A stretch of 31,892 nt of DNA, from positions 1 to 31,892 of the IMG/VR virus record IMGVR_UViG_2654587686_000018. The stretch is one strand, 5' to 3'. Below, piece by piece: positions 1-28,981 of the stretch. How positions within the stretch are numbered: the first letter of the stretch is position 1; each line of letters opens with the position of its first letter. Under the pieces are notes generated by a model. That model made no database searches. It had not been told where the DNA came from and was given only the letters and a program-made list of their open reading frames with translations. Source of the stretch: a virus (Duplodnaviria; Heunggongvirae; Uroviricota; Caudoviricetes). The translations under genes were made by a program, and so were the position numbers.

Positions 1-492
1 AATGTATTCTAGCTTGGCGTTTGAATTATTTGATTGTTTGATTTCAAGTAATAATTCTGAAAGAACATTCTCATCTTGTGTTTTTTCGAATAAAATGTAA
101 GAGAAGAAAGAATGTTCTTTATAATAATCAACATTATTATTCTCCCTTATGAACTCAAGGAAAACATTTTTTGCTTCTTTAACTTTATTTTCTTCCAATA
201 ACGACTCTACAGGTAAAAACCAGTGAGTGTCCTTTCTTTCTTGTATATCAGTTGAAGGTGGGGTATCTAAATTTCCTGTTTCGTCTAGGTTATCATCATT
301 CGATATGGATTGATTTTCATCAGTTTCAAAAGTGAGCGGGCCCGCATTCATTTTTAATTTTTTTGCAGAGATTAATTTATTAATGAGTGATTTTAATTGC
401 TTATGATAAACTACTGCGATGACAATACAAAGAATTGGCCATAGAGAAAATTTTAATGCCGTGTCTATGAGTGAGTACATTTCAGGTGTCAT
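1..492 (-). CDS. hypothetical membrane-anchored protein, 5' part only (ORF runs off the window start); AT-rich accessory gene
   Basis: My own translation of the minus strand from the ATG at 490-492: MTPEMYSLIDTALKFSLWPILCIVIAVVYHKQL..., open to position 1. One N-terminal hydrophobic helix. Very AT-rich compared with the neighbouring phage genes. Same strand as CI and 14 bp downstream of its stop. Absent from the ORF track because it has no stop inside the window. Confidence 0.5.
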   Translation of the reverse strand, partial: MTPEMYSLIDTALKFSLWPILCIVIAVVYHKQLKSLINKLISAKKLKMNAGPLTFETDENQSISNDDNLDETGNLDTPPSTDIQERKDTHWFLPVESLLEENKVKEAKNVFLEFIRENNNVDYYKEHSFFSYILFEKTQDENVLSELLLEIKQSNNSNAKLEYI

Positions 493-506
493 ACCCTACG
501 TCCTGT

Positions 507-1064
507 TTAGATGAATGATTTTTTTATGTTCGCTTTGAAATTCAGATCTTTTATAGGGCAGTCAAAGGAAATATCATCCTTAGTCACCCTAACTGAGTTA
601 TTAGGTATACGCGATACATTTCTTATACTAAATTTTTCATCAATACTCAGAAGCCACTTGCCATCGGTAATATCTTCAAAAAATGAATCAGCAATGAATA
701 TGTTGTTATTTTCTTCGATAACAATGGGGCTGACAATATTTTTAGGTAGTATTGTTTTATCAAAAAAAACAGTTCCGGCATCATATAGATTTCCATCAAC
801 TATTTTTTGCTTATGCAATCTTAGAATGTCCTGCCTTTCTATATCAAAAACAGGACCATTACCGTTAACTAGCCAGGTCAGTGATGCTCCTGTTTGTAAA
901 GCGCATGTAATTACCCAATCTGATGGGAAAATATCTCTCATGTATCTAGTGGCAAGGGTGCTTTTCGATACACCCAAGTGATCGGCTAGCGCCTGCCGTG
1001 TGGTGAAACCATATGCTTCAACCAATCTCTCGATAACTTTTCGCCCACCACTGTTGAAATCCAT
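507..1064 (-). CDS. prophage repressor, coliphage 186 CI-like
   Basis: 185 aa with an N-terminal helix-turn-helix (AYGFTTRQALADHLGVSKSTLATRYMRD) and a pattern I recall from 186 CI. Good SD (aagggga) before the ATG at 1062-1064. Divergent from the rightward early operon. Confidence 0.7.
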   Translation of the reverse strand: MDFNSGGRKVIERLVEAYGFTTRQALADHLGVSKSTLATRYMRDIFPSDWVITCALQTGASLTWLVNGNGPVFDIERQDILRLHKQKIVDGNLYDAGTVFFDKTILPKNIVSPIVIEENNNIFIADSFFEDITDGKWLLSIDEKFSIRNVSRIPNNSVRVTKDDISFDCPIKDLNFKANIKKSFI

Positions 1065-1192
1065 TGCTTCCCCTTGGAATCTAATCGTTCTTGACAGATT
1101 CCAAAAGCGATCATAACATCACATCGAAAGTTCGCTTTCGGAATCTTCGCTTGTTAACACTATTAATCCTTGCTCACCACAAGCAGATCAAC
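1065..1192. promoter_or_regulatory. immunity switch region: candidate rightward lytic promoter plus operator-like repeats
   Basis: Perfect -35 TTGACA at 1091-1096, 17-bp spacer, -10-like TAACAT at 1114-1119. GGAATCT at 1076-1082 and 1140-1146, its reverse complement AGATTCC at 1096-1102. Palindrome CGAAAG-N4-CTTTCG at 1125-1140. Confidence 0.4.
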
Positions 1193-1429
1193 ATGGAATC
1201 ATGCATTATGAATCAACACATTTCAATCGCAATTACAACTCCACATGTAACTATTGAACGCTATAGTGAACTTACTGGTTTGTCGGTGGAGACTATCAAC
1301 GACATGTTGGCCGATGGACGGCTCATAAGGCATCGACTACGCAAAGATAAAAAGCGTGAAAAAGTGATGATTAACATCGCAGCCATGACAATAGATGCAC
1401 TTTCTAACAGCAACGTAATCATTAGTTAG
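1193..1429 (+). CDS. Apl/Cox-like small DNA-binding regulator or excisionase (start uncertain: ATG 1193 or 1208)
   Basis: First gene rightward from the switch. HTH-like segment ERYSELTGLSVETINDMLADGRL. The track ORF starts at a TTG at 1091 that coincides with the -35 hexamer, so an internal ATG is more likely. Confidence 0.45.
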   Translation: MESCIMNQHISIAITTPHVTIERYSELTGLSVETINDMLADGRLIRHRLRKDKKREKVMINIAAMTIDALSNSNVIIS

Positions 1430-1461
1430 TTCGATTTTGAGAACTTTTGGAGGCGTTGGCT

Positions 1462-1965
1462 ATGTTTGACTATCAAACTTCTAAACATGCTCACTTTGAT
1501 GCGGCTTGCCGAGCATTTGCAATTGAACACAATCTGGAAGATGTGGCCGCTGCCGTTGGCATGAGGCCGCAGATTCTGCGCAACAAATTGAATCCAGCAC
1601 AGCCGCACCGTTTAACCTGTGACGAGCTTTTAGCTATTACGGATTACACCGAAGATGCGCGTTTACTGGATGGAATGCTGGGGCAGATTAACTGCCTTCC
1701 ATCCGTACCGGTGAACAATGCTACAGAAGGCAACATGCAGTTGTGTGCACTGAGTGCCACAGCCAGTGTGGGCGCAATTGCTGGGGAAGCCGTATCAACT
1801 GGTCATATGACCGCCGCCCGCCGTACACAAATTCTGGATCGCGCTCGCGATGCAATCCGTAGCTTATCCGTGCTGGCTTATACCGTTGAAAGCCGTATCC
1901 AGTCTGCGCCTGTTCTGGCCGCAGCGGTGGATCTGGTGACGGCTAACGCCACAGGCTTGATATGA
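1462..1965 (+). CDS. CII-like transcriptional activator (186 CII family)
   Basis: ATG at 1462 preceded by GGAGG at 1449-1453. N-terminus MFDYQTSKHAHFDAACRAFA...LRNKLNPAQPH matches what I recall of 186 CII. Sits immediately after the Apl-like gene as in 186. Confidence 0.6.
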   Translation: MFDYQTSKHAHFDAACRAFAIEHNLEDVAAAVGMRPQILRNKLNPAQPHRLTCDELLAITDYTEDARLLDGMLGQINCLPSVPVNNATEGNMQLCALSATASVGAIAGEAVSTGHMTAARRTQILDRARDAIRSLSVLAYTVESRIQSAPVLAAAVDLVTANATGLI

Positions 1966-3088: not shown

Positions 3089-3322
3089 ATGCACATGACA
3101 CGTCAGGATTTACCCGCAACGAAATCAGGTACTGACCTTCTGGCCATGCTCACCAAAGCCACACAGGAAGGTAAAGCCGCTGCTGCTGATCTGTGTTCCA
3201 CCCGTCTGGATAAGCTGGCCACCCATGCAGCCAATGAAGGTTTAAGCGCAACTGAAGTCATTGAGTTAATCCGCGAAGAAGCCGCAGCGATTTGCAGTAA
3301 GGGCGGTGCAGCATGGCAGTAA
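3089..3322 (+). CDS. hypothetical early protein (77 aa)
   Basis: ORF with SD (aagga) upstream; alanine-rich, predicted helical. Confidence 0.5.
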   Translation: MHMTRQDLPATKSGTDLLAMLTKATQEGKAAAADLCSTRLDKLATHAANEGLSATEVIELIREEAAAICSKGGAAWQ

Positions 3323-4182
3323 AAACTCCGCTTAAGTGGGTGGGCAGCAAAGCCCGCCTTATGCCGCAGTTGCTTCCCCATCTGCCGGAGGGTAAGCGCC
3401 TGATAGAACCTTTTGCCGGTTCCTGTGCTGTCATGATGAATACGGATTATGACGAGTATCTGATAGCTGATGTGAATCCTGACCTTGTTAATCTGTATAA
3501 GACGATGGCTTATCACACTGATGCATTGCTCATTGAGCTGGAGGCTTTATTTTCTGCCGGTTCATTAGGTGATGAAGAAAACCGGGCAATTTTCTATTAC
3601 GCGGTACGTGATGCCTTCAACCACTCCGGCAAATCCTTTGGTTCTGAATCTGTGGAAGCTGCGGCGCGTTTTCTTTATCTGAACCGTCACTGCTTCAATG
3701 GCCTGTGCCGATACAATCGCCGTGGCCAGTTCAATGTTCCGTTTGGTAAGTACAAAAAAACCTACTTTCCTGCTGATGAAATCCGCGCTTTTGCAGAAAA
3801 AGCGAAACGTGCAACGTTCATTACTGCCCACTATTCAGAAACGCTTGATTTGGTAAGGGACGGGCATGACGTTGTTTATTGTGATCCGCCTTACCTGACT
3901 GATACCGACAATTTCACCGCGTACCATGAGCGCGGTTTTTCTCACATGGATCAGGGGCGGCTGGCGCGTAAGCTGCGCCGCCTGGCTGAGCGTGGGATTA
4001 AGGTTGTCGCGTCAAACAGCGATCTGGAAATGGTGCATTACCTGTATGCAGGATTTGACGCTGTGCGGGTAAATGCCCCACGCAGTGTGGGTGCAGCAGC
4101 TGCAAGCCAGAAAGTTGCCGCAGAGCTGATTCTTAAGTCACCTGCAAACCCGGCGATCGGCGTTAGGGCGGTGGTGGCATGA
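3313..4182 (+). CDS. DNA adenine methyltransferase, Dam-like (N6-adenine, D12 class)
   Basis: N-terminus MAVKTPLKWVGSKARL and motifs EPFAGSCAV and DPPY are characteristic of Dam-family enzymes. No restriction endonuclease gene nearby. Confidence 0.85.
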   Translation: MAVKTPLKWVGSKARLMPQLLPHLPEGKRLIEPFAGSCAVMMNTDYDEYLIADVNPDLVNLYKTMAYHTDALLIELEALFSAGSLGDEENRAIFYYAVRDAFNHSGKSFGSESVEAAARFLYLNRHCFNGLCRYNRRGQFNVPFGKYKKTYFPADEIRAFAEKAKRATFITAHYSETLDLVRDGHDVVYCDPPYLTDTDNFTAYHERGFSHMDQGRLARKLRRLAERGIKVVASNSDLEMVHYLYAGFDAVRVNAPRSVGAAAASQKVAAELILKSPANPAIGVRAVVA

Positions 4183-4392: not shown

Positions 4393-6408
4393 ATGCTGGA
4401 GCCTGGCCAACACCACGTCGTCAATGCCTGGCGGCGTGAAACCTTTGCGCCTGGCACTCCTTCAGATGCAACGATCACAGAACGCCGTTTGTGGGCTGTA
4501 AACCCACTGGATTATGAATGGCGTTCCCAGTACCTGCATGAAATACCCGACTGGTTAGCCGGGTATTTTGGCAACCGTTACGAAAAGCTGCTGGCTGGTC
4601 TTGACGGGCGTCGCCGTGCCAATACATTCCTGCGCAAAACTATCGGCGGGAATGTATTGCCACGTCTGCGCAAAGTGGCTGCACGTTACAAGCTGGCCGC
4701 TGATGCACTTGATCTTCCTTTCGGTAAGTCGCTGGAGCGACTGCCGTCACTTGACCGCCCGGAACTCAAAAAACTGGCTGGCCAGATATCTGGCTGGATC
4801 TCCCAGTCACTTTATGACTTCACCGATCAGTTTGTGGGCAGCACTGACGATGCCGCAGAGCTGCGCCGCCGTACGCTGGAGTCTTACGGCCATTTATGCA
4901 CGTGCTCCCTGATGCTGAACAATCAACCGCCGTACTGGGCTGAACATGAAGCCAATGGCGGACAACTGGAAACGCGTAAGGCTGAATCCGGGATTCTTCG
5001 CATGATGGCACCTGAATGGTGGTATCTGCGTCTTAAGCGGGCGCGTGATATGCAGCGTGAGCATATGGCCATTGCCGTAGGGCAGGTACAGAAAGCCGCC
5101 AGTGCTTATGTGTCACGTAAAACCCTGGGTGAATGGATAGACCAGAAAAAGCGGAACCTTGAGTTCTTTAAAAAGTTTGACCTGCTGAATGATGAAGGGC
5201 TGCGTATTGCACTGGACAGTATGGTGCACCGCAGCGTTGCTAATCCGGCGATCCGTCGCTGTGAGCTAATGGTAAGAATGAGAGGGTTTGAAGATATGGC
5301 CAATGAAGAAGGGCTGGCCGGTGAGTTTTACACCATCACCGCGCCATCACGATTCCATGCGGTACACAGCAAAGGAGGCTTTGTTTCACAATGGGATGGC
5401 TGCACCCCGCAGGACACCCAGCGCTACTTATGTGGCGTATGGGCGAAAGCCCGCGCCGCTATTTCCCGCGCAGGTATCCATGTTTTTGGTTTTCGTGTGG
5501 TAGAGCCTCACCACGATGGGACACCGCACTGGCATATGCTGCTTTTTATGCGTCCTGGTGACGTGGATACCGTGCGCGATATTCTTTGCTATCAAGCCAG
5601 AATTACCGACTCCGAAGAACTGCAAACGCCAAACGCGCTAAAGGCACGTTTCCATGTTGAAGCCATCGATCCCGCTAAAGGTTCGGCTACAGGTTATATC
5701 GCCAAATACATATCCAAAAACATTGATGGATTTGCGCTGGATGGTGAGCAGGATGATGAAACAGGGGAAAATCTGCGGGATATGGCCAAATCCGTTTCTG
5801 CATGGGCTTCACGCTGGCGCATTCGCCAGTTTCAGCAGATTGGTGGTGCGCCGGTGACAGTCTGGCGTGAGCTGCGTCGGTTGCGTGATCAGGTACTGAC
5901 TGACCGCAGAATGGATGCGGTTCTGGCTGCTGCGGATGTTGGGGACTGGGCTGCATACACCCAGGCACAGGGTGGCGCACTGGTTGCCCGCCGTGATCTG
6001 GTTGTTCGTCTGGCTTATGAAATTACAGAGCAGGGCAATGAATATGCAGAGGACGTGCAGCGCGTTCAGGGTGTCTATTCTCCATTGGTTCCAGATTCAG
6101 CGGTATGTACGCGTCTGGTGAAGTGGCAGAAGGTCGCGAAGTTGGCCGAAGCGCCAGCGGAGGCGGGTTTTTCTGGCGGCAACGCCGCCCCTTGGAGTTC
6201 TGTCAATAACTGTACGGAGGGTGGAACCCGCAGACGGTTAAAACTGGAATTGCGAAGCCGGGGTTTTGAAGGTTCTGACGATGAAATAGCCATTCTCATG
6301 CGGGGTAGTGGTTTGAGATTTGGCCAGGCGGCGTTGATTTACCGTAATGGCAGGTTACAGGAGACACGAAACGAGCCAATGCACGAGCTGTGGCCGGGGT
6401 GGTTGTAG
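4393..6408 (+). CDS. replication initiation endonuclease (P2 gpA / 186 RepA-like rolling-circle initiator)
   Basis: HUH-type motif HHDGTPHWHMLLF and catalytic tyrosine motif GYIAKYISKN. Track ORF begins at TTG 4357; the in-frame ATG at 4393 directly follows the upstream stop and is preferred. Confidence 0.85.
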   Translation: MLEPGQHHVVNAWRRETFAPGTPSDATITERRLWAVNPLDYEWRSQYLHEIPDWLAGYFGNRYEKLLAGLDGRRRANTFLRKTIGGNVLPRLRKVAARYKLAADALDLPFGKSLERLPSLDRPELKKLAGQISGWISQSLYDFTDQFVGSTDDAAELRRRTLESYGHLCTCSLMLNNQPPYWAEHEANGGQLETRKAESGILRMMAPEWWYLRLKRARDMQREHMAIAVGQVQKAASAYVSRKTLGEWIDQKKRNLEFFKKFDLLNDEGLRIALDSMVHRSVANPAIRRCELMVRMRGFEDMANEEGLAGEFYTITAPSRFHAVHSKGGFVSQWDGCTPQDTQRYLCGVWAKARAAISRAGIHVFGFRVVEPHHDGTPHWHMLLFMRPGDVDTVRDILCYQARITDSEELQTPNALKARFHVEAIDPAKGSATGYIAKYISKNIDGFALDGEQDDETGENLRDMAKSVSAWASRWRIRQFQQIGGAPVTVWRELRRLRDQVLTDRRMDAVLAAADVGDWAAYTQAQGGALVARRDLVVRLAYEITEQGNEYAEDVQRVQGVYSPLVPDSAVCTRLVKWQKVAKLAEAPAEAGFSGGNAAPWSSVNNCTEGGTRRRLKLELRSRGFEGSDDEIAILMRGSGLRFGQAALIYRNGRLQETRNEPMHELWPGWL

Positions 6409-6486
6409 CCTCGTAAGTCTGTGATACATCACTGTTTGTCAACGAATAGCAGCAAAAATCACTTTCACATTTTGTGCTTAAATGTA

Positions 6487-6506
6487 TACTGTATGAATAT
6501 ACAGTT
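6487..6506. promoter_or_regulatory. LexA (SOS) box
   Basis: TACTGTATGAATATACAGTT is a CTGT-N8-ACAG palindrome close to the E. coli LexA consensus. It overlaps a -10-like TATACT at 6485-6490. Confidence 0.7.
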
Positions 6507-6523
6507 ATTCTGTTTTTAGGAGG

Positions 6524-6742
6524 ATGCTTGTGCAGGATTTGTTTATGGAAACTATCGCATTGCAGCGGATTGCGTTGTTTACCAGGTTGATCGCCAAAAG
6601 TAATTGCACTGGCTGTGAAAAGGACATTGCACTTGCCTGGCTAAGCGAGCTGACTTCAGATCTGGAAAGTAAACTTGATGAATATGAAAGTAAAAACCCC
6701 CGGGAAGGGGGCTTATCAGGCGGCGGGAGTCGCTTTCAGTAG
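6524..6742 (+). CDS. small SOS-regulated protein, candidate Tum-like antirepressor (start ATG 6524 or GTG 6530)
   Basis: ORF immediately downstream of the LexA box with a strong SD AGGAGG at 6518-6523. Function inferred from position and regulation, not sequence identity. Confidence 0.4.
   Translation: MLVQDLFMETIALQRIALFTRLIAKSNCTGCEKDIALAWLSELTSDLESKLDEYESKNPREGGLSGGGSRFQ
6692..6711 (-). terminator. putative intrinsic terminator for the Ogr-like gene
   Basis: CCCCC/GGGGG stem with 5-nt loop at 6697-6711 and an A-run at 6692-6696 (U-run on the minus transcript), 5 nt past the stop at 6716. Confidence 0.4.
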
Positions 6743-6985
6743 GTCTAATGCCATTTGACGCTGATCGGGTGACAGTGCATTCAATATTTTCTGCACCATT
6801 GCATCACCCGTTTTCGCGCTGGGGCTGAGAGTGTGGGAGAACGTCAGATTCATCACAAACGTATGGCCACACTCCACATCTGAACAGGCGCAGTAAATAT
6901 CCGCAATCTGCCGGTGCTTCCGGTTTGTTTTACGAATAACAGCCTTTGAGCCGCATTCCGGGCATTCGATTTTCAGAACTCGCAT
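6716..6985 (-). CDS. Ogr/Delta-family zinc-finger late gene activator
   Basis: CPEC...CACSDVEC cysteine pattern (CxxC-N22-CxCxxxxC) as in P2 Ogr. Start placed at MRVLKIECPEC (ATG 6983-6985) with GGAG SD; the track ORF extends to 7039. Confidence 0.7.
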   Translation of the reverse strand: MRVLKIECPECGSKAVIRKTNRKHRQIADIYCACSDVECGHTFVMNLTFSHTLSPSAKTGDAMVQKILNALSPDQRQMALDLLKATPAA

Positions 6986-7035
6986 ATTCCATGCTCCAGC
7001 TGTTAAATGATGCCTGGATTTTAGCCTTTTTCGCC

Positions 7036-8097
7036 TCATGCCGCATCCTTATCCGTTGATTCTGTGTAACTTAAATCAAAGTGAAGGTGCAGACGTTCCG
7101 GTATTTCGGGATCGTTGTTCACGGCAGTCATAAACCGACGCTGAATAGGCGCTATCTCGCTTTTCTTGTAAATCCTTTCCGCCTTTTCAACATCCCCCAG
7201 GCCAGCTGTGTTCTGCGGAACAATTCCGGCCAGCCCTGCCGGAAAGCGGTGTGCGTTGAGAATGTCCTGTGCGCTGATGTTTTTGATGTTGGCAAATTCA
7301 TCTTTTGCAGAGATATCCCCCATTTCAATAAACTTGATCGCATCCCCATCCCCGCCTGGAATGTTCACCAGAATAGTGGAGAAGTTGCCGATACCTTTGC
7401 TGTCACGCAGCTGCTGTTCAATTTCTTCTTCCATTTCATCCGTCATACTGGGATCGCGCGTGTAGAGAATGCCGCCAGTATGGGCGCCGTTGTGGTAGTA
7501 ACGGCGGCGAAAAATCACGGCTTCGCTGTTAAGCAATGCAGAATGTACACCGCCGATATAGTCGGGCAGCCCGTAAATATGCTGTTGCGGGTCGTACATC
7601 TTGATAAAAATGATATCTTCCTGTGGCCATACCTGCGGTTCCCCGTCCTGCAATACCACATAATCGCCGGGCTGGTCTGTGGCGTTGTCCCTGACTTTAC
7701 GGCGGCGAATATACAGGCCGGGTAAAGGTTCCAGGGCAATCACATCCCCCCATCCGTTGCGGATTTTGCCAATCGCAATATCCCCGAAGGTTGTATAGTC
7801 AAACGCTGCGGCTTCCAGTTGGTCGTAAGTCAGGCCACCGCCCAGATAATCAGACACAATCATATTTTTCCGGGCGTGGATGATGCCGCCATGCTGACCG
7901 TTCAGATTGATAAGCTGTGCCAGTGCCAGCCGGTCAATCGGCTGGGTGAAGTGATCGGCGGCATTGTCGTACCAGATGTCGCGGTAATCCGTGCCGGTGG
8001 TCAGGACGGGTTCCGGTTTGCCGAATGTGATGATGCTCATTTTTTTGGACTTATCGCCGCGCGGGTTGCGCTTAACGAAGCGTTTTTTTTTACTCAT
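7036..8097 (-). CDS. portal protein (P2 gpQ-like)
   Basis: 353 aa; segments YGLPDYIGGVHSALLNSEAVIFRRRYYHNGAHTGG and DISAKDEFANIKNISAQDILNAHRFP resemble P2 Q. Stop overlaps the terminase gene. Confidence 0.9.
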   Translation of the reverse strand: MSKKKRFVKRNPRGDKSKKMSIITFGKPEPVLTTGTDYRDIWYDNAADHFTQPIDRLALAQLINLNGQHGGIIHARKNMIVSDYLGGGLTYDQLEAAAFDYTTFGDIAIGKIRNGWGDVIALEPLPGLYIRRRKVRDNATDQPGDYVVLQDGEPQVWPQEDIIFIKMYDPQQHIYGLPDYIGGVHSALLNSEAVIFRRRYYHNGAHTGGILYTRDPSMTDEMEEEIEQQLRDSKGIGNFSTILVNIPGGDGDAIKFIEMGDISAKDEFANIKNISAQDILNAHRFPAGLAGIVPQNTAGLGDVEKAERIYKKSEIAPIQRRFMTAVNNDPEIPERLHLHFDLSYTESTDKDAA

Positions 8098-9869
8098 GCA
8101 GCCTCTTTCCTTACACCCCAGCGGGATTTCGGTTTATTTTCGTAGTTGAGTGGTTCGTTATGCAGGGCGTGGGTAATCGCCCAGAAAGCCTCCGCGTGGC
8201 CTGTGTCCTGGCTGCGGTCAGCGACAAATGTCATGGCGTTACCGCTTTGCGTGGTGGTGCGGCGTACAGCCATAAAGCTGGCCGGGATCTCTTTCAGGTT
8301 TTTGTCCCATTCGATACGCTGGCTTTCCACCACGTCCGCCGCTTTCAGTACCAGCTGATTTTTCGTGTTCATGTCGTAACGAATGGCGACGGCCACGCGC
8401 ATGGCAAAATGCTGGATGTTGTCAAAAACACCCTGGCCAATACCGGTAACGTCCACTCCCAGATAGGTGAAGTTGTATTTTTTAAACAGGAGTTCGATCT
8501 GCCTGGCCTGATAGCGGAAGTTCATGCCCTTCCAGTTAATGACCTTCAGAACGCGGAATTTCTCTGCGGCGTACATCGGCGGGGCAATAATCACAAAACA
8601 CGACAAATCGCCGCTGCGTGCAGGGTCAAATCCTCCCCATACCGGCCTGTCACCAAATGGCCGCGCAGCGTCCGGGTTGTGATCCTGCCAGGTGTCCACC
8701 TCCACGCCGCAGGCTTCCAGGTCTGAAAAACTGAATACAGAATCCTTGCTGTCCACGAACACGCACATATAAAGCATGTTGAAGGTGGCGGTGTTGTAGC
8801 GGTTGCGCAGCTTCTCGATGTTGGCCAGGTTGAAGCCGCCCGCAATGGCATCCTCCATCGTGATGACATAGCGCCACTGACCATCCGGGCAAAGCCGTCC
8901 GCCGTTGCGCATTTCATCAAAAGACGGGAACTGAGCGGCCGCGCGTTTTTTGCTGCCCTGTTTCCATTCCTCACCCGTCCAGAACGGGTAGGCCTGGTGC
9001 GTTTTGGCCGATGGCGTTGAAAAGTAGGTGGTGCGCCATTTGTCATGGGTGGCCATTGCGCTGGCCACTTCGTTAAGCCTGGCGAAGTTAGGCACCCAGA
9101 AATATTCGTCACAGTACAGGTGGCCACTGTAGGACTGGGCCGTGTTTTTGTTGGTTGAGAGAAAACGCAGTTCAGCGCCGTTGCTGAGGCGGATCGGGTT
9201 GCCGGTCAGCGTGATGCCAAAATACTGTTCTGCAATGTTGACGATGTAAGACCGGAAGTATTCCGCCTGGACTTTGGAGGCAGACAGGAAGATTTGCGGA
9301 TCGCCTGTCATGACCGCGTTTTCAAAGGCTTCAAATGCAAAGTACCAGGTGGCACCGATCTGGCGGCTTTTAAGGATGTTCCTGACCTGCTGGCCAATAT
9401 TCCGGCGCAGGTGTTTCTGGTATTCAAAAAGATGTTCTTCCGCCCAGGTGTCAAAATCCGCCTGAGTCAGAGAAGAAATATCGTTTTTCCTGTTTTTGCG
9501 TTTGGGGCGCGGTTCATCGCTGTTGCTGTCCCGCGCAGCTGCCTGACTGTTACTCTGGCCGCTGGCCATTTTTTCTTTATGCTTATTGCTTTGAGCACGC
9601 AGCTTTGTCGCATGGGCAATCAGCATGTCCATTTCTTTCAGGTCGAGATCGGTTTTATTATCGCGGCTGGCCAGCAGCTGGTAGCGGCGTTCAATTGCCT
9701 CCTCTGTACTTTCAAAGCTGAGTAAATCCGCCCAGCTGTATTTCTCAGCCCAGTAGTAAACGATCCGCGCATTCGGCAGATTTAATTCTGATGCAATTTC
9801 TTTTGGCGTATAGCGGCGCAAATAAAGTGCGCGGACAACGCCTTTTAGTTCTTCTGAGTATTTAGCCAT
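8094..9869 (-). CDS. terminase large (ATPase) subunit (P2 gpP-like)
   Basis: 591 aa, adjacent to and overlapping the portal gene, divergent from the scaffold gene as in P2. Confidence 0.9.
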   Translation of the reverse strand: MAKYSEELKGVVRALYLRRYTPKEIASELNLPNARIVYYWAEKYSWADLLSFESTEEAIERRYQLLASRDNKTDLDLKEMDMLIAHATKLRAQSNKHKEKMASGQSNSQAAARDSNSDEPRPKRKNRKNDISSLTQADFDTWAEEHLFEYQKHLRRNIGQQVRNILKSRQIGATWYFAFEAFENAVMTGDPQIFLSASKVQAEYFRSYIVNIAEQYFGITLTGNPIRLSNGAELRFLSTNKNTAQSYSGHLYCDEYFWVPNFARLNEVASAMATHDKWRTTYFSTPSAKTHQAYPFWTGEEWKQGSKKRAAAQFPSFDEMRNGGRLCPDGQWRYVITMEDAIAGGFNLANIEKLRNRYNTATFNMLYMCVFVDSKDSVFSFSDLEACGVEVDTWQDHNPDAARPFGDRPVWGGFDPARSGDLSCFVIIAPPMYAAEKFRVLKVINWKGMNFRYQARQIELLFKKYNFTYLGVDVTGIGQGVFDNIQHFAMRVAVAIRYDMNTKNQLVLKAADVVESQRIEWDKNLKEIPASFMAVRRTTTQSGNAMTFVADRSQDTGHAEAFWAITHALHNEPLNYENKPKSRWGVRKEAA

Positions 9870-16596: not shown

Positions 16597-16976
16597 TGAG
16601 TCACGCGCAGTGGCTGGTTGTGGTGGCGCTGGCGTTTGTCTGGGGCTGGCTGACAGCTGACTGGCGGCGCGACAGTCTGGAGCTGGCAATCAATACGGCG
16701 GCGCAGGTGGCGGGTAATGAATCGCGAAAGGCTATGCAGGGCATTGCCAGTGATTCCGCCAGGGAGCTGGAAGATAAACTGGAGGCGCTAAGAAATGCGC
16801 AACCGCGAGAGATCCGCACGGAAGTGCTTAAGCCGGTTTTTACTAACAGGTGCCTGTCTGATGAGTTTGTCAGCATGTACAACAGCGCCGTCGCCGGTAC
16901 CGAACGTGCGTTATCAGGAAAACCTGAAAACACGATGCGCCACGCAGCTGCCGCGCCTGAACGGGGCAACAGGTAA
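16596..16976 (+). CDS. i-spanin (Rz-like)
   Basis: N-terminal hydrophobic anchor (WLVVVALAFVWGWL) followed by a charged, helical periplasmic domain; position after the endolysin. Confidence 0.65.
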   Translation: MSHAQWLVVVALAFVWGWLTADWRRDSLELAINTAAQVAGNESRKAMQGIASDSARELEDKLEALRNAQPREIRTEVLKPVFTNRCLSDEFVSMYNSAVAGTERALSGKPENTMRHAAAAPERGNR

Positions 16977-17094
16977 AGATGCAGCGGAACTGCTGACTGT
17001 TTACCTTGAAATATATGGCCAGTGTGCGGCGCGTCATAATCAATTAGTTGATGAAATTAATTTAAGAGAGCGTGTTATTTATGGAACAAATTAA
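16795..17094 (+). CDS. o-spanin (Rz1-like outer-membrane lipoprotein), overlapped architecture
   Basis: +1-frame ORF starting inside the i-spanin gene. Signal peptide ending in lipobox LSAC. Runs past the i-spanin stop. Confidence 0.55.
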   Translation: MRNRERSARKCLSRFLLTGACLMSLSACTTAPSPVPNVRYQENLKTRCATQLPRLNGATGKDAAELLTVYLEIYGQCAARHNQLVDEINLRERVIYGTN

Positions 17095-17338
17095 ACTGAG
17101 TGTCTGTGGGGTTGATATTGTTTTTGAACCTAATCAGACTGCTTATAATAAACTGATTAATGAAATGGCAATGGATAATAAAGTTGCCCCTGCAAATAAT
17201 TATCTGATGCGTATTGTTACCCCAGAAACGAAAGAAGCACTGATTGACGTATTAAAACGTCCGGGTGCAGCACTGCAACTGGTCAGTAAGGTTAATGATA
17301 TTTACGCGCCGGAACTGGAGATTGAAGTAAAAAACTGA
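17072..17338 (+). CDS. tail assembly chaperone (0-frame product, gpE/G-like)
   Basis: 88-aa ORF immediately upstream of the tape measure gene; ends just after a slippery heptamer. Confidence 0.6.
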   Translation: MLFMEQIKLSVCGVDIVFEPNQTAYNKLINEMAMDNKVAPANNYLMRIVTPETKEALIDVLKRPGAALQLVSKVNDIYAPELEIEVKN

Positions 17339-24965: not shown

Positions 24966-25482
24966 TGGTGAGGCTATCCAGCTGAAAAATATGCGCGTGA
25001 CCGTCTCGCAGCAGTTTCAGGATAAAGACCAGTCCGGCCAGACAAGTGCCACAACCAAATCAGAACAGGGGGCAAAAGGGAAAGAGCTGCGTATCAGTGG
25101 CGAAATTCCGTTTAAAAGCCCGGAGATCCTGAAGCGTATTTTCGAACTGGCCAGCGCCACGGATGCCGGAGGCAACCGCCAGAAATACCGCGTGGCGCAT
25201 GAAGTGGCCAGAGCCGTGAATTTTCGTGAGGCGACATTCAGCGGAATGCTTGATGCCCCGCAGCAGGACGGGAAAATGGCCTGGCTGGTCACGTTTACGC
25301 TGGCAGAACATATCAGCGTGCAGGAAAAGCGGGAAGCCAGGGCAACAGGCAAAACGTCTGCCAAAAAACAGACGGCCGGTAATGCGGGACAATCCGGTGG
25401 CCAGAGTGCCGGGGAAGATGAAGAAAAACTGACGTGGTTTGAAAAACGGGTACTGAAACCCGTCAATGATGCTTTGGGTTAA
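24937..25482 (+). CDS. hypothetical tail-associated protein
   Basis: 181 aa, start overlaps the previous gene, SD (aaaggga) upstream. Confidence 0.45.
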   Translation: MTSIPTLALNGEAIQLKNMRVTVSQQFQDKDQSGQTSATTKSEQGAKGKELRISGEIPFKSPEILKRIFELASATDAGGNRQKYRVAHEVARAVNFREATFSGMLDAPQQDGKMAWLVTFTLAEHISVQEKREARATGKTSAKKQTAGNAGQSGGQSAGEDEEKLTWFEKRVLKPVNDALG

Positions 25483-27185
25483 TGATGAAACCAGTTAAAC
25501 GCCTGTACCTTTCAACGGATGAAGTTCACCTGGCGGATGCCAGCCTGGTGCTGGAGCTGAACAGCTGCGGCCGGGGATTTATCACTGTACAGACAGCCAC
25601 GGATTACACCGGGAAACTGGTGCGGCTGGATGTGGGGTATTCCGATCTGCTTTTGCGCTGGTTTACTGGTTATGTGGAACGCTCACAACCCGCCGAAAAC
25701 GGTTTTCAGCGTCTGTTTGTGCGCGAGCTGGTCGGCGTGTTTGAAAGGATGTGGCCATGTTCATTTCAGCACCCCACTTTGCGCAAGGTAGCCAGCTGGC
25801 TGGAGGAAAACAGCGGAATTGCTGTCAGTGTGCCGGATGCCCCTTACAGCGATAAACCGATCCCCCATTTCACCCACAACGGCACAGGCTATCAGTTGCT
25901 GAATAATCTGGGCAGGGCGTTCAGTATCCCGGATTACATCTGGTACCAGCTGCCGGATGGTTCCCTGCATGTGGGCGGCGCGGAAAAAGCGATGTTTGCC
26001 GGTCGCCCGGTCGATATCCCGGCAGAGTTTAGCCTGGGGGCGGCTGGCGGTAATTCCATGACGCTGCCGGTGATCCAGAGTCTGCGGCCGGGTGTGGAGC
26101 TGAACGGGGAGCGTGTGACCAAAGTTCATCTGACCAATGACACAATGGCTGTTACCTGGACACCCAGAAACCGTGCAACAGGTCAGCCATTACAGAAAAC
26201 ACCTGCACAGCGCCAGATTGAAAGCAATTACCCGGAACTGGCTTCCGGGCTGCATCTGCCAAAACTGGCCAGAGTGGTGGCACCCAGCGAGGCTGTGAAA
26301 AGTGGTAATTTTGCCGATCCGTTCCGGCCGCGCTATGCCGTTGATGTGCAGCTGCTTGATGCAGACGGCAACCCGGACAACCAGACACCGGTTTATTCTG
26401 CGGTGCCGCTGCCGGTACCTATGGCCGGGAATGACTCTGGCATGTTCCAGTTCCCGCCAGAAGGGACGCTGGTTGAAGTGGCGTTTACCGGAGGTCGCCC
26501 GGATAAACCGTTTATCAGGCAGACGTTGCCAGATGGTACCAGTCTGCCGGATGTTAAACCCGGCGAGCAGCTGCAACAGCAACGGGCGGAAGTGTCGCAA
26601 CGTGTTACCCAGGCTGGCGATTGGGTACGGCAGACCGATCAGACCATCAGCGAAACATCGATGGCGCGGACGGTTAAAGCCGATACGGAACAGCGTGATT
26701 TGGTCAGCCGTGAAACCACGGTTAAAGCCACCGACAAAACCACGGTTCTGGGTACCGCCACCCTGTTGGCCGGTGCCATCCAGCAGGTCAGCGCCGGGGA
26801 TTTTAGCCAGGCCGTGAAGGGCAACAGACTGGCCAGCATTGAAGGCAATGACGAAACCGATATTTCCGGGAAACAGTCCACTAAGGTGGCCGGAGCCGTG
26901 GATGTTGATGTGGGGGGAACCCTGACTGAAAAGATTGCTGCATTACGTAAATCGGTGGCGGCGGGCGGTCAGCAGATTATGGGACCAACCGTCCATATTG
27001 GCAGTGAGAGCGTCAACACGCTGACTATGATGCTGGACACTATTGATTTACTGGCCGAGCTGGCGCAGCAGTGTGCGAGCCATTCACACCCCAGTGTTGG
27101 TACGCCAACCAATGCCGGGGCATTCACACAGACGGCGGAGAAGGCCGGACAGACCCGAAGTAAGTACCAGAAAATAATCGCCTGA
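25482..27185 (+). CDS. baseplate central spike protein (gpV / gp5 / VgrG-like OB fold) with C-terminal extension
   Basis: FPPEGTLVEVAFTGGRPDKPFI matches the spike OB-fold motif (FxPxxGxxVxVxFxxGxxDxPxI). C-terminal HSHP is reminiscent of the HxH tip of P2 gpV. Confidence 0.5.
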   Translation: MMKPVKRLYLSTDEVHLADASLVLELNSCGRGFITVQTATDYTGKLVRLDVGYSDLLLRWFTGYVERSQPAENGFQRLFVRELVGVFERMWPCSFQHPTLRKVASWLEENSGIAVSVPDAPYSDKPIPHFTHNGTGYQLLNNLGRAFSIPDYIWYQLPDGSLHVGGAEKAMFAGRPVDIPAEFSLGAAGGNSMTLPVIQSLRPGVELNGERVTKVHLTNDTMAVTWTPRNRATGQPLQKTPAQRQIESNYPELASGLHLPKLARVVAPSEAVKSGNFADPFRPRYAVDVQLLDADGNPDNQTPVYSAVPLPVPMAGNDSGMFQFPPEGTLVEVAFTGGRPDKPFIRQTLPDGTSLPDVKPGEQLQQQRAEVSQRVTQAGDWVRQTDQTISETSMARTVKADTEQRDLVSRETTVKATDKTTVLGTATLLAGAIQQVSAGDFSQAVKGNRLASIEGNDETDISGKQSTKVAGAVDVDVGGTLTEKIAALRKSVAAGGQQIMGPTVHIGSESVNTLTMMLDTIDLLAELAQQCASHSHPSVGTPTNAGAFTQTAEKAGQTRSKYQKIIA

Positions 27186-27290: not shown

Positions 27291-27623
27291 ATGAAAAATT
27301 TCATTATGTTAGCTGTAGGCGCAGCAGTTTCATTCAATGTGTTAGCCGCTGAAGTTTTTACTGTGCCAACGGATACGAAGGCTAGCTATACGGTCTTAGA
27401 GAAGACGCGTACCGGTGATATGGCTACGATAACAACCAAGAGAGAGGGACCATCTGGAGTGTCATATTCTAAGCGCTTGTACGACTGTACGGCCTCGACG
27501 GTCAAGTATCTTGGAAGCGGTGACACTATAGAGCAAATGAATGGCTCAGCACCAGATCCAAATATGGCACCTATAATTGACCGTTCAATTGCATACTATG
27601 TTGGTCAGAAAGCCTGCCGATAA
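27291..27623 (+). CDS. moron: small secreted/periplasmic protein of unknown function (110 aa)
   Basis: Signal-peptide-like N-terminus MKNFIMLAVGAAVSFNVLA-AEV. Two cysteines in the mature part. AT-richer than the tail genes. Bracketed by two terminators. Confidence 0.6.
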   Translation: MKNFIMLAVGAAVSFNVLAAEVFTVPTDTKASYTVLEKTRTGDMATITTKREGPSGVSYSKRLYDCTASTVKYLGSGDTIEQMNGSAPDPNMAPIIDRSIAYYVGQKACR

Positions 27624-27665
27624 CCATAGCTTCATATCAGTTGATATAAATTGAGTATTCCGCTA

Positions 27666-27688
27666 ACCCGCATAATGCGGGTTTTTTT
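27666..27688 (+). terminator. intrinsic terminator after the moron
   Basis: ACCCGC-ATAAT-GCGGGT hairpin followed by TTTTTTT. Confidence 0.7.
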
Positions 27689-28191
27689 GTGCCTGTTAAC
27701 AGGCGGCACAGAACGCACACTGTACGCATTGCAATGCTCAGATACCACACGAGACACATCAATAGGATCAAGTGCACAGCGAAGCACTGACGGCTCTACA
27801 TGCTGACAAAAGAAATACTTCACAGACAAAAACGGCACTACACCGCACCCGCCTGCGGTTTCTGGATCGATAAAATTTTTCAGTTTTCTTTTCCTACAAA
27901 CCAGACCGCCGGACAGCGCCAGTTCTGGCTGATTGCGGGAAATCTCCAACTGAAAAAATTGAAAGGAATTTCAGTGATTTTCAGTAAAAAGGATCTCTCA
28001 AGAAATTGAAGGATTGTGTAAGTTACAGATAAATAATGGAAAAAATAATTTTAGATGATTGCTTGGATGCTAATAGCGCAGGGAATTATTTATAACGAAT
28101 AGCCCGCAGTGTTAAGCTGGGGGCGGGCTAGAGTATGCATGTTGGCATTTTACCTGCTGAAAAAATGAAGAATCTAACGTCGTAAATAAAA

Positions 28192-28554
28192 TTACTCTGT
28201 TTTAGGGCAGACTATTCCTTCTTGTCTCATTTTGGCTATAAAACCAACCCCATCCCCTGTAAGGTGACTTCCATCATCTTCCAGGATACCGTCATCTCTG
28301 CCGGCACTGAGTGGAGCGCTATAAATTTCCTTATGGAACAACAGGCAAGCTCTCCCAACACCTTGCTTTTTGCATTTATCAAGGCCTAAATTCGTAATGT
28401 GATACAGTACATAAGGTGGATGTGGAAGCTCAACCTCTCTAAACACAATGCTACCAACGGCCTTGCCATCAAGACGAACTTCAATTTCAAGGCCTGAGTG
28501 ATTAACTAGTTGATACTCAACACCTCTTTTTGATTCGAAAATAGAAGTTTCCAT
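28192..28554 (-). CDS. hypothetical protein, possibly a minimal GNAT-like fold (second gene of an AT-rich cassette)
   Basis: 120-aa ORF with SD GGGAG about 9 nt upstream. Segment KKQGVGRACLL resembles the acetyl-CoA-binding motif A (Q/R-x-x-G-x-G/A) of GNAT enzymes, but the protein is short for that fold. Confidence 0.5.
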   Translation of the reverse strand: METSIFESKRGVEYQLVNHSGLEIEVRLDGKAVGSIVFREVELPHPPYVLYHITNLGLDKCKKQGVGRACLLFHKEIYSAPLSAGRDDGILEDDGSHLTGDGVGFIAKMRQEGIVCPKTE

Positions 28555-28582
28555 ATCTTTTCTCCCTATATGTAAGATAAAT

Positions 28583-28981
28583 TTATTTCTCTTCGCACTC
28601 CTGCTTAGTTTTGTTATTGATAGATATTGCTGCGCATTTGTCTAGTAATAACATGCACTTATCAATATCATCTGCTTTTCTGAGTTTTACTCGTGTTACA
28701 CCTTGGTTGTTGTCAAGTGTGGAACATATCATTTCAATTTCTATGTCATTTCGATTGAATAATCCCATAATAGTTTTAGCTACCTCTCTGCTTTTTTCTA
28801 CAATATCAAACACTAAGGATAGCTTATCTGGTGCTTTTTCAGAAAAACAAAGCACTTTGCTCAGAGGCAAATTATTATGAGAAAAGTGTCCTTTGACTTC
28901 CTCTAGAAGTTCTTGGGAGGTGTAGATGGTGATTCCTGCGAATTGTCCTAGGTGGAGAGCATTTTGTCTTGTTCTGGTCAT
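28583..28981 (-). CDS. hypothetical protein (first gene of an AT-rich two-gene cassette)
   Basis: 132-aa ORF with SD AAGGA about 7 nt upstream; 28-bp gap to the downstream gene; no family recognised. Confidence 0.5.
   Translation of the reverse strand: MTRTRQNALHLGQFAGITIYTSQELLEEVKGHFSHNNLPLSKVLCFSEKAPDKLSLVFDIVEKSREVAKTIMGLFNRNDIEIEMICSTLDNNQGVTRVKLRKADDIDKCMLLLDKCAAISINNKTKQECEEK

What the first reader, a model, noticed from the sequence alone, without database searches (positions are those of the whole stretch)
1..506. AT-rich membrane-protein gene directly downstream of the CI repressor
The first ~490 bp are far more AT-rich than the flanking phage genes. They encode, on the CI strand and only 14 bp past the CI stop, the N-terminal 160+ residues of a protein with one hydrophobic anchor helix and an acidic, Asn/Lys-rich soluble domain. 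A foreign gene co-transcribed with the repressor would be expressed in the lysogen, which is the position where temperate phages place exclusion or abortive-infection genes (lambda rexAB after cI is the classic case). I recognise no family, and the 3' part lies outside the window.
Basis: partly seen in the sequence, partly recalled or inferred. Interest (0 to 1): 0.7.

Follow-up and report, generated by a model that had tools for sequence, protein, structure and literature searches.

The report
Membrane-anchored TPR cargo gene after cI
The AT-rich stretch is the start of a 527-residue membrane-tethered repeat protein of unknown function that a 186-like prophage carries between its repressor and integrase genes, a slot where related prophages carry known anti-phage defence genes, so it is a good but untested defence candidate.

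Summary
Window 1-492 (minus strand) encodes the first 164 residues of a protein that starts 14 nt after the cI stop. Its GC content is 0.31, against 0.52 for the rest of the window.

One correction: the AT-rich block also covers the 3' two-thirds of cI.

The full gene was recovered from near-identical prophages. It encodes 527 residues:
- an N-terminal transmembrane helix, predicted N-out/C-in;
- an acidic disordered linker;
- a roughly 330-residue TPR solenoid;
- an unassigned roughly 100-residue beta domain.

It belongs to PHROG 31809 (function unknown) and to a wider full-length family of 1401 representatives. It matches no known defence model and has no recognisable enzymatic domain. It is under purifying selection (dN/dS 0.11-0.16) and survives in decayed prophage remnants.

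The slot between the cI stop and a conserved int leader is a hypervariable, AT-rich cargo site in 186-like prophages. Relatives carry PD-Lambda-1, an OLD/AriA-like ATPase, KAP-NTPase and HEPN candidates there.

Best reading: a cargo gene transcribed with cI in the lysogen that defends against or excludes other phages. This rests on position and linkage only. It is a new, uncharacterised candidate in a known kind of locus, of moderate interest.

The parts
1..492 (-). 5' part (codons 1-164 of 527) of the cargo gene. It encodes a membrane-anchored TPR protein; the remaining 363 codons lie left of the window.
   Evidence: Translation. The 164 residues read the same as the N-terminus of P0002 (527 aa) in the alignment. 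The full gene is seen in L002-L007 (8001-9584) and in E. coli EcPF15 (L001 6909-8495, RefSeq 'tetratricopeptide repeat protein'). GC is 0.309.
403..462 (-). Residues 11-30: hydrophobic transmembrane anchor (core FSLWPILCIVIAVVY).
   Evidence: Best 19-residue stretch has mean Kyte-Doolittle score 1.96 and starts at residue 11. Among 138 family members the median score is 2.08, and 91% have more Lys/Arg on the C-terminal flank (3.3 against 0.8). By the positive-inside rule this gives N-out/C-in. AF2 places a helix at residues 3-28, with block-mean pLDDT 82-94 over residues 1-30.
367..402 (-). Residues 31-42: basic juxtamembrane helix (HKQLKSLINKLI).
   Evidence: AF2 helix at 30-42. Lys-rich flank. 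The FR/K-rich pattern is conserved across the family.
223..366 (-). Residues 43-90: a short conserved K-x-K...G...E hairpin, then an acidic disordered linker.
   Evidence: pLDDT is below 50 for residues 48-50 and 53-86. Residues 49-90 hold 11 Asp/Glu against 2 Lys/Arg. E56 is invariant.
1..222 (-). Residues 91-164: the first helices of the TPR solenoid, which runs to about residue 419 outside the window.
   Evidence: AF2 model with a 65-sequence alignment has mean pLDDT 89.9, with paired helices from 92 to 419. The family profile matches consensus TPR in the PDB at E 4.9e-44. 34 of 65 members hit Pfam TPR_2. Foldseek returns only TPR superhelices.
493..506 (-). 14-nt cI-cargo junction carrying the ribosome-binding site (AGGA at 504-501).
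   Evidence: The sequence reads TAA-ACAGGACGTAGGGT-ATG. There is no room for a promoter or terminator. The gap is 12-23 nt in 10 of 11 family loci and 65 nt in L023. No terminator-like site lies between cI and the cargo gene in L002.
507..1064 (-). cI repressor gene (185 aa). Its AT-rich 3' two-thirds belongs to the same compositional and evolutionary block as the cargo gene.
   Evidence: Pfam Phage_CI_repr and Phage_CI_C. GC is 0.314 for 507-840 and 0.446 for 841-1064. Identity of cI falls in step with that of the cargo. For L001 against L002, dS is 0.33 for cI and 0.36 for the cargo, but 1.09 for int and 0.07 for cII.
1208..1429 (+). apl/cox-like gene (73 aa) on the divergent lytic strand. 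The pR/pL switch region lies at about 1065-1207.
   Evidence: ORF table. The orthologous 73-aa gene is called in L001 and L002. Promoter-like sites lie upstream of cI in L002. This part is context only.

Best explanation
The stretch is the 5' third of a single-gene cargo ('moron'). It sits in the hypervariable slot between the cI stop codon and the conserved int leader of a 186-like (Peduoviridae) prophage. The prophage is integrated between rcdA and ybjL.

**Shown**
- The gene is read on the cI strand, 14 nt after cI, with its own Shine-Dalgarno sequence and no intervening terminator-like site.

**Predicted**
- The product has 527 residues: one N-terminal transmembrane helix predicted N-out/C-in, a flexible acidic linker of about 45 residues, a TPR solenoid of about 330 residues, a long connecting helix, and an eight-strand beta domain of about 100 residues.
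- The whole recognition part is therefore predicted to hang on the cytoplasmic face of the inner membrane.

**Inferred**
- The gene is transcribed with cI from the lysogenic promoters, so it is made in the lysogen.
- It protects the lysogen against other phages.

**Most likely mechanism (also inferred)**
- The TPR/beta module binds a protein of an infecting phage at the membrane.
- It then either holds that protein there, which is exclusion by sequestration or a block of genome entry or early functions, or clusters the transmembrane helices and damages the membrane, which is abortive infection.
- No enzymatic effector domain is recognisable. I therefore rank sequestration or exclusion slightly above membrane-damage abortive infection.
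For: **Position**
- The gene order cI -> gene -> int is found in every prophage locus that carries the gene. These loci come from Escherichia and Klebsiella isolates, a food-metagenome contig and unnamed Logan, ENA and IMG/VR contigs. Protein identity to the window's gene falls as low as 31-36%.
- In phage 186, int lies downstream of cI and reports leftward (lysogenic) transcription (PMC7708051).

**The slot is a defence hotspot**
- In 22 of 25 species-representative loci, the interval from the cI stop to the ACATTGA int-leader motif is 339-3227 bp. Its median GC is 0.34, against 0.51 for the neighbouring phage DNA.
- The slot holds many unrelated cargos.
- Identified cargos are PD-Lambda-1 (E 3e-120 in phage vB_EcoM-813R9; 558-565-aa ORFs at the same position in six genomes were not scanned), PDC-M18A, an OLD/AriA-like ATPase-Toprim protein, PDC-S20 KAP NTPase (PifA-like) and PDC-M34B/HEPN_Swt1.
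- A membrane-anchored DUF4041 protein of the PD-Lambda-1 architecture was validated as a defence system (PMC9519451).
- A cI-int hotspot is described for Vibrio K139-like phages (PMC9122126). 8% of defence systems in P2-like prophages lie between integrase and primase (PMC13586616).

**The gene is functional**
- dN/dS is 0.11-0.16.
- The family is conserved over its full length: 149 representatives at E <= 1e-30, mostly 500-560 aa.
- The gene stays intact in decayed remnants. In Serratia only a cII fragment, apl, cI and this gene remain. In Pectobacterium a 60-aa CI_C fragment remains beside the intact gene.

**Architecture**
-.
Against: - There is no experimental or homology evidence for defence. 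PADLOC v2 returns no hits, Pfam finds only sub-threshold TPR matches, and PHROG 31809 has no known function.
- No effector domain is recognisable.
- Distant family members occur outside phages. P0102 is a solitary gene among housekeeping genes. Neighbours of P0019 and P0041 give no defence hits. The ancestral role of the family may therefore be cellular.
- Not all hotspot cargo is defensive.
- Expression in the lysogen is inferred from gene arrangement and was not measured.
Confidence: 0.55

Rival explanations
1. Lysogenic-conversion factor that changes host envelope or membrane-protease physiology and does not sense phages. It would be a LapB-like, membrane-anchored cytoplasmic TPR adaptor that redirects FtsH or another membrane complex. 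Possible effects are altered LPS or envelope, or altered stress tolerance. Any effect on phages would be indirect.
For: - It has the same gross layout as LapB: an N-terminal transmembrane helix followed by cytoplasmic TPRs. The family profile and the model hit LapB among many other TPR proteins (E about 2e-6).
- Distant homologues are solitary chromosomal genes among housekeeping genes.
- The gene is retained in prophage remnants, which fits any host benefit.
Against: - The LapB similarity is generic TPR similarity. Consensus TPR scores far higher, at E 4.9e-44.
- The alignments show no conserved rubredoxin-type Cys pairs at the C-terminus. The model places a beta domain there, with one Cys conserved among close relatives.
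- The slot's identified cargos are defence families, not envelope genes.
Confidence: 0.2
2. Accessory regulator of the phage's own lysis-lysogeny switch, functionally coupled to this cI lineage. It might tether or modulate CI, or modulate membrane-protease turnover of CII.
For: - cI, especially its C-terminal oligomerisation domain, and the gene fall in identity in step across 8 loci. Int and CII do not.
- cI and the gene share dS (0.33 and 0.36), unlike the flanking genes.
- 186 CII is degraded by the membrane proteases FtsH and RseP (PMC7708051 abstract).
Against: - The same tight linkage of cargo to cI clade is seen for PD-Lambda-1. Linkage is therefore a property of the slot: the genes are 14 nt apart and recombination breakpoints fall outside the block.
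- The cIs of L017, L023 and L024 do not cluster with the core clade.
- Phage 186, with int directly downstream of cI, and most relatives lack the gene.
- The beta domain is unrelated to CI_C (hhalign probability 0.6%).
Confidence: 0.1
3. Decaying or selfish passenger DNA with no function for phage or host, or a mis-called ORF in AT-rich DNA.
For: - It is AT-rich.
- It is rare: 1 of 5,426 complete E. coli genomes.
- It has no annotated function.
Against: - An intact ORF of 516-546 codons persists at down to 31% identity.
- dN/dS is 0.11-0.16.
- The AF2 model is confident (pLDDT 89.9).
- The family has 1401 representatives.
- The gene outlives its prophage.
Confidence: 0.03

Closest known systems
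PD-Lambda-1 (membrane-anchored DUF4041 + T5orf172 protein; Vassallo et al. 2022, PMC9519451) as carried by Escherichia phage vB_EcoM-813R9
   Same: It occupies exactly the same slot (cI -> gene -> int, prophage next to rcdA) in a related 186-like prophage. It is also a single gene of about 560 aa that is AT-rich relative to the phage backbone (GC 0.37). It has an N-terminal membrane anchor followed by a large cytoplasmic part. Its presence also tracks a cI clade.
   Different: There is no sequence relationship. PD-Lambda-1 has a recognisable nuclease-type effector (T5orf172/MUG113) and a coiled coil. The window's protein has TPRs and an unassigned beta domain, with no effector.
cI-int defence hotspot of Vibrio K139-like P2-related prophages (Rousset et al. 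2022, PMC9122126), and the 'integrase-primase' defence locus of P2-like prophages (PMC13586616)
   Same: [quoted passage not shown] Here the slot has sharp borders and a variable AT-rich content.
   Different: Neither paper mentions a TPR or transmembrane protein of this kind in its main text, and the supplements were not searched. The hotspot in enterobacterial 186-like phages is not singled out beyond the 8% figure.
Lambda rexAB downstream of cI
   Same: The positional logic is the same: an accessory gene in the repressor transcription unit, expressed in the lysogen, that acts against other phages through a membrane component.
   Different: RexAB has two components, with a multi-pass channel protein. 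The window has a single one-pass TPR protein. No PADLOC model, of any system, matched.
LapB (YciM), the inner-membrane TPR adaptor of FtsH
   Same: An N-terminal transmembrane helix, cytoplasmic TPR array and small C-terminal domain. It appears among the structural and profile hits.
   Different: The similarity is no better than to any TPR protein. The C-terminal domain is a beta domain and not a rubredoxin. The window's gene is phage cargo and not a core gene.

Membership tests
Tetratricopeptide-repeat (TPR) proteins | Tandem 34-residue helix-turn-helix repeats detectable by TPR sequence profiles | tested here: met
   The protein alone is below threshold in Pfam (TPR_17 and TPR_8 at E 0.4; ARM_TT21_4th at 0.002-0.018). 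However, 34 of 65 family members hit TPR_2 (best 1.5e-11). The family profile hits engineered consensus TPR proteins in the PDB at E 4.9e-44.
Tetratricopeptide-repeat (TPR) proteins | Right-handed alpha-solenoid of paired antiparallel helices | tested here: met
   The AF2 model (pLDDT 89.9) has about 19 helices between residues 92 and 419. Foldseek top hits are TPR superhelices such as OGT, CTPR and APC/C subunits (E down to 1.7e-7).
PHROG 31809 (phage protein family, function unknown) | Full-length match to the family profile | tested here: met
   The EcPF15 orthologue (88% identical to the window's protein) matches at E 1.9e-57, residues 20-524 on profile positions 26-532 of 538. The 164-residue window fragment alone gives no hit.
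Cargo of the cI-int hotspot of 186-like prophages | Lies between the cI stop codon and the conserved int leader, on the cI strand | tested here: met
   Window 1-506 together with the full loci L001, L002, L008, L011, L012, L017, L023 and L024. The slot is 1612-1685 bp.
Cargo of the cI-int hotspot of 186-like prophages | Content varies between otherwise related prophages and is compositionally foreign | tested here: met
   The 30 related loci carry many different cargos and none is this family. Slot GC is 0.31-0.34 against about 0.51.
Known anti-phage defence systems (PADLOC-DB v2.0.0) | Significant match to a model of a known or candidate defence protein | tested here: not met
   No family matched at E <= 1 for the full protein or for the fragment.
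Known anti-phage defence systems (functional definition) | Reduces phage propagation when expressed | not testable with these tools
   This needs plaque and liquid-infection assays.
LapB/YciM family | C-terminal rubredoxin-type zinc-binding domain after the TPRs | tested here: not met
   The model places eight beta strands at residues 430-523. The alignments show one Cys conserved among close relatives (C495) and no conserved CxxC pairs. No NCBIfam LapB hit.
   tblastn against 50,697 phage records gives no match. The gene is absent from 30 of 30 cI-related species-representative loci. It is present in 1 of 5,426 complete E. coli genomes.

The most novel reading that the evidence does not exclude
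The family is a previously undescribed single-protein anti-phage immunity system with no enzymatic effector. It would be a cytoplasmic TPR plus beta-domain sensor tethered to the inner membrane by one helix. It would act either by capturing an incoming phage protein at the membrane or by ligand-driven clustering of its transmembrane helices. It would be useful enough to its host to be kept after the prophage around it has decayed.
Probability: 0.35. Interest if true: 0.7.

Novelty: new member of a known kind. Interest (0 to 1): 0.45.

Why it matters
If the gene does protect the lysogen, it adds an effector-less, membrane-tethered TPR sensor to the list of prophage-encoded defences. It also marks the cI-int slot of enterobacterial 186-like prophages as a sharply bounded place to look for more. 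The slot is bounded by the cI stop codon on one side and a conserved int leader on the other, and about half of the cargos sampled here have no annotation.

The case also shows that cargo in this slot is inherited together with the immunity (cI) type. This links superinfection immunity and heterologous defence into one exchangeable module.

If the gene has no phage phenotype, it is one more uncharacterised prophage gene.

Tried and rejected
- **Phage database.** Megablast of window 1-1100 and tblastn of the full protein gave no match.
- **Family libraries.** PADLOC and NCBIfam on the protein gave nothing useful.
- **Structure searches.**
  - Foldseek against the PDB (two models) and against BFVD returned only generic TPR hits.
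- **C-terminal domain by sequence.**
  - A profile against the PDB gave a best hit to the TbpB barrel at E 0.16, which is not significant.
  - Pfam on 32 fragments found no consistent family.
  - hhalign against the cI alignment, including CI_C, gave probability 0.6%. The idea that the domain mimics the cI oligomerisation domain is rejected.
- **The search for related loci.** The broad family alignments had no stretch conserved enough to use. The narrower alignment found no relative in one-genome-per-species GTDB contigs and 3 loci in IMG/VR.
- **Neighbours of distant homologues.** PADLOC on these, and on a neighbouring Pectobacterium prophage's cargo, gave no hits.
- **Rfam on window 1-1500.** Only a chance-level hit to IsrM, 14.6 bits against a gathering threshold of 376.
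- **RNAalifold on the int leader.** The alignment did not register the variable hairpins, so there is no covariation statistic.
- **Homology with other cargos of the slot.** Comparison with the 4LV2017 349-aa, YenM_324 232-aa and 813R9 558-aa proteins found none.

Full report
**1. The observation**

Window 1-492, read on the minus strand, is an open frame of 164 codons that runs off the left edge. It starts at the ATG at 492-490.

The neighbouring ORF 507-1064 (-) is a 185-residue repressor. It matches Pfam Phage_CI_repr (1.6e-29) and Phage_CI_C (2e-27). Its TAA is at 509-507.

The junction reads TAA-ACAGGACGTAGGGT-ATG. This gives 14 nt between the genes and an AGGA placed 8 nt before the ATG.

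GC of 1-492 is 0.309. This is the lowest of all 492-nt windows in the 31.9-kb sequence; the rest averages 0.518 +/- 0.051, so z = -4.1.

The fragment has:
- a hydrophobic 19-residue stretch starting at residue 11 (mean Kyte-Doolittle score 1.96);
- a Lys-rich helix after it;
- a linker (residues 49-90) with 11 Asp/Glu against 2 Lys/Arg;
- 9% Asn and 9% Lys overall.

The description is therefore correct, with one correction. The AT-rich block does not stop at the gene. The 3' part of cI (507-840) has GC 0.314, and only the HTH-coding 5' part rises to 0.446.

**2. The full gene**

Megablast finds the region in one of 5,426 complete E. coli genomes, strain EcPF15, at 91% identity. RefSeq annotates a 528-residue 'tetratricopeptide repeat protein' there, between 'phage repressor protein CI' and 'phage integrase'.

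A search of 5.8 billion proteins gives 9 close clusters from Escherichia, Citrobacter and Klebsiella. In the alignment, the window's 164 residues read the same as the N-terminus of P0002 (527 aa).

Loci that encode P0002 match the window at 98.5% nucleotide identity over its first 3.3 kb. Their gene order is cII, apl, cI, this gene, int, then the host genes rcdA and ybjJ. GC stays at 0.31 over the whole 1.58-kb gene.

At the window's other end lie the host genes ybjL and ybjM. The prophage therefore sits between rcdA and ybjL.

**3. The protein**

- *Family matches.* Pfam gives only sub-threshold TPR hits for the protein alone. PADLOC gives none, and NCBIfam gives nothing meaningful. PHROG 31809 (function unknown) matches over the full length at E 1.9e-57.
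- *Wider family.* A profile of the nine close relatives, run against 1.84 billion cluster representatives, finds 1401 proteins at E <= 1e-3 and 149 at E <= 1e-30. Most are 500-560 residues and most align over most of their length. 34 of 65 members hit TPR_2. The family profile hits consensus TPR proteins in the PDB at E 4.9e-44.
- *Predicted structure.* With a 65-sequence alignment, AlphaFold2 gives mean pLDDT 89.9:
  - helix 3-28, the membrane anchor;
  - helix 30-42;
  - low confidence at 48-50 and 53-86;
  - paired helices from 92 to 419, the last of them 44 residues long;
  - eight beta strands from 430 to 523.
- *Topology.* Among 138 family members the hydrophobic segment has a median Kyte-Doolittle score of 2.08. 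In 91% of them the C-terminal flank carries more Lys/Arg (3.3 against 0.8). By the positive-inside rule the soluble part is cytoplasmic. This is a prediction and has not been measured.
- *Fold searches.* They return only generic TPR superhelices, with LapB among them.
- *C-terminal beta domain.* It has no significant relative by sequence. The TbpB barrel scores E 0.16, and Pfam finds nothing consistent. It is not related to the cI C-terminal domain.
- *Effector.* No enzymatic domain is recognisable.

**4. The gene is real and under selection**

dN/dS is 0.11-0.16 in three pairwise comparisons, against 0.03-0.06 for cI. An intact ORF of the same architecture persists down to about 20% identity.

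It also outlives its prophage:
- In Serratia the rcdA/ybjL-side locus retains only a cII fragment, apl, cI and this gene.
- In Pectobacterium a 60-residue CI_C fragment precedes the intact 546-residue gene among host genes. In one food-metagenome contig a fresh P2-like prophage lies next to that remnant.

**5. The slot**

In every prophage context found, the gene directly follows a cI of the Phage_CI_repr + Phage_CI_C type and precedes int. The gap after cI is 12-23 nt in 10 of 11 loci and 65 nt in L023.

Other 186-like phages carry unrelated genes at the same place:
- Klebsiella phage 4LV2017 carries a 349-aa protein.
- Yersinia phage YenM_324 carries a 232-aa protein.
- Escherichia phage vB_EcoM-813R9 carries a 558-aa protein.

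Thirty species-representative genomes carry a cI that is 37-54% identical over a full-length match (one further hit was a 23-residue fragment). Their slots hold one to three genes of many sizes, and none belongs to this family.

The slot has sharp borders: the cI stop codon on one side and a conserved motif, ACATTGAC(C)ACTG, about 55-60 nt upstream of int on the other. In 22 of 25 loci the interval is 339-3227 bp. Its median GC is 0.34, against 0.51 for neighbouring phage DNA.

The identifiable contents of the slot are defence genes or defence candidates:

| Cargo | Evidence |
|---|---|
| PD-Lambda-1 | E 3e-120 in 813R9; 558-565-aa ORFs at the same position in six further genomes, not scanned |
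| PDC-M18A | PADLOC match |
| OLD/AriA-like ATPase-Toprim | PADLOC match |
| PDC-S20 KAP NTPase (PifA-like) | two loci |
| PDC-M34B / HEPN_Swt1 | two loci |

[quoted passage not shown] (PMC9519451). Rousset et al. describe a cI-int hotspot in Vibrio K139-like phages (PMC9122126). A 2026 survey places 8% of defence systems in P2-like prophages between integrase and primase (PMC13586616).

The kind of locus is therefore known. This cargo is not.

**6. Linkage to cI**

Identity to the L002 reference falls in step for cI and the cargo, but not for Int.

| Protein | Identity to L002 across the loci compared (%) |
|---|---|
| cI | 97, 82, 76, 63, 52, 51, 48, 39 |
| Cargo | 88, 66, 55, 45, 36, 33, 34, 32 |
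| Int | 91, 87, 89, 92, not available, 37, 90, 70 |

Between L001 and L002, dS is 0.33 for cI and 0.36 for the cargo, but 1.09 for int and 0.07 for cII. The AT-rich block, made of the cI C-terminal domain and the cargo, therefore has its own history, with recombination breakpoints on either side.

A neighbour-joining tree of cI puts six cargo-bearing loci in one clade. L017, L023 and L024 fall elsewhere, and PD-Lambda-1 also tracks its own cI clade. I read the linkage as a consequence of the 14-nt spacing, which is a property of the slot, and not as evidence that the protein works with cI.

**7. Expression**

No terminator-like site lies between cI and the gene. In phage 186, int lies directly downstream of cI, and an int::lacZ fusion is used to measure leftward, lysogenic transcription (PMC7708051).

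Between the cargo and int, every locus has a GC-rich hairpin of variable sequence. Its 3' arm contains the int Shine-Dalgarno sequence, and a T-run and the int ATG follow it. This looks like an attenuator or terminator that would end or thin the cI-cargo transcript before int.

Co-transcription with cI is therefore very likely, but it is inferred.

**8. Explanation and rivals**

- *Best reading (confidence 0.55).* It is a lysogen-expressed cargo gene that defends against or excludes other phages. A cytoplasmic TPR/beta sensor tethered to the inner membrane would do the work. Because no effector is visible, I rank capture or exclusion at the membrane slightly above transmembrane-helix-mediated abortive infection.
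- *Rival 1 (0.2).* A LapB-like adaptor that changes host membrane physiology. Support comes from the gross layout and from solitary chromosomal homologues. Against it are the generic nature of the LapB similarity and the missing rubredoxin domain.
- *Rival 2 (0.1).* An accessory of the phage's own switch. Support comes from the linkage to cI. Against it is the same linkage for PD-Lambda-1 and the gene's absence from most 186-like phages.
- *Rival 3 (0.03).* Junk DNA. The selection data refute it.

**9. Verdict**

The function is untested.

This is a new, uncharacterised candidate in a known kind of hotspot, and interest is moderate. It is a single gene with a clean prediction and would be easy to test.

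Noticed in passing
Outside the window: L002 9598-9659; also L008, L011, L012, L015, L017, L023, L025, L029, L035, L040 and L045, upstream of int: A conserved int leader bounds the cargo slot whatever the cargo. It consists of ACATTGAC(C)ACTG, 9-11 nt, then CAGT(T/A)AAAT. This is promoter-like (TTGACA-17-AAAAAT) and contains an inverted repeat. A GC-rich hairpin of variable sequence follows, with the int Shine-Dalgarno sequence in its 3' arm, and then a T-run and the int ATG. It is possibly an attenuator or translational control of int. RNAalifold could not register the hairpins.
   Followed up: partly
window 507-840 (cI 3' part) together with 1-492: The cI C-terminal (oligomerisation) domain is as AT-rich as the cargo (GC 0.314). 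It diverges in step with the cargo, while the HTH domain stays conserved. The exchangeable module is therefore 'cI C-terminal half + cargo', and not the cargo alone.
   Followed up: yes
L055/L056 (Serratia) 5795-8557; L058 (Pectobacterium) 6795-8641; L057: Prophage remnants keep the TPR gene intact. It sits beside cI, apl and a cII fragment in Serratia, and beside only a 60-aa CI_C fragment in Pectobacterium. In L057 a second, intact P2-like prophage with different cI-int cargo (374, 104 and 149 aa, one of them DUF4325) lies directly beside the remnant.
   Followed up: partly
window 27291-28981 and 25482-27185: This is the second AT-rich island of the window (GC 0.35-0.40). It lies at the right prophage/host border, before the host genes ybjL (29273-30958, -) and ybjM (31228-31605, +). 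It holds four small ORFs of 105-132 aa with no Pfam match. A 567-aa protein with weak Phage_base_V and Gp5_C matches precedes it.
   Followed up: partly
L002-L007 10741-11226: A 161-aa ORF with no Pfam match lies between int and the host gene rcdA. It is absent from the EcPF15 prophage (L001). PMC13586616 notes the int-att interval as a minor defence locus of P2-like prophages.
   Followed up: no
window 3313-3328 against L002 4851-5180: The window lacks the DUF3850 gene that the otherwise 96-98% identical prophages L002-L007 carry between the DUF2732 gene and dam. The BLAST alignment breaks there.
   Followed up: no
L003 1-370 and L007 1-925: In two loci that carry the identical TPR protein, the portal and terminase genes next to ogr are replaced by a Gp5_C-repeat gene. 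That gene matches window 26229-26772 at 94%. This suggests a deletion of the late region in those prophages.
   Followed up: no
window 16900-17200 and 30600-30900: Two further short dips in GC, to 0.39-0.42. They were not examined.
   Followed up: no
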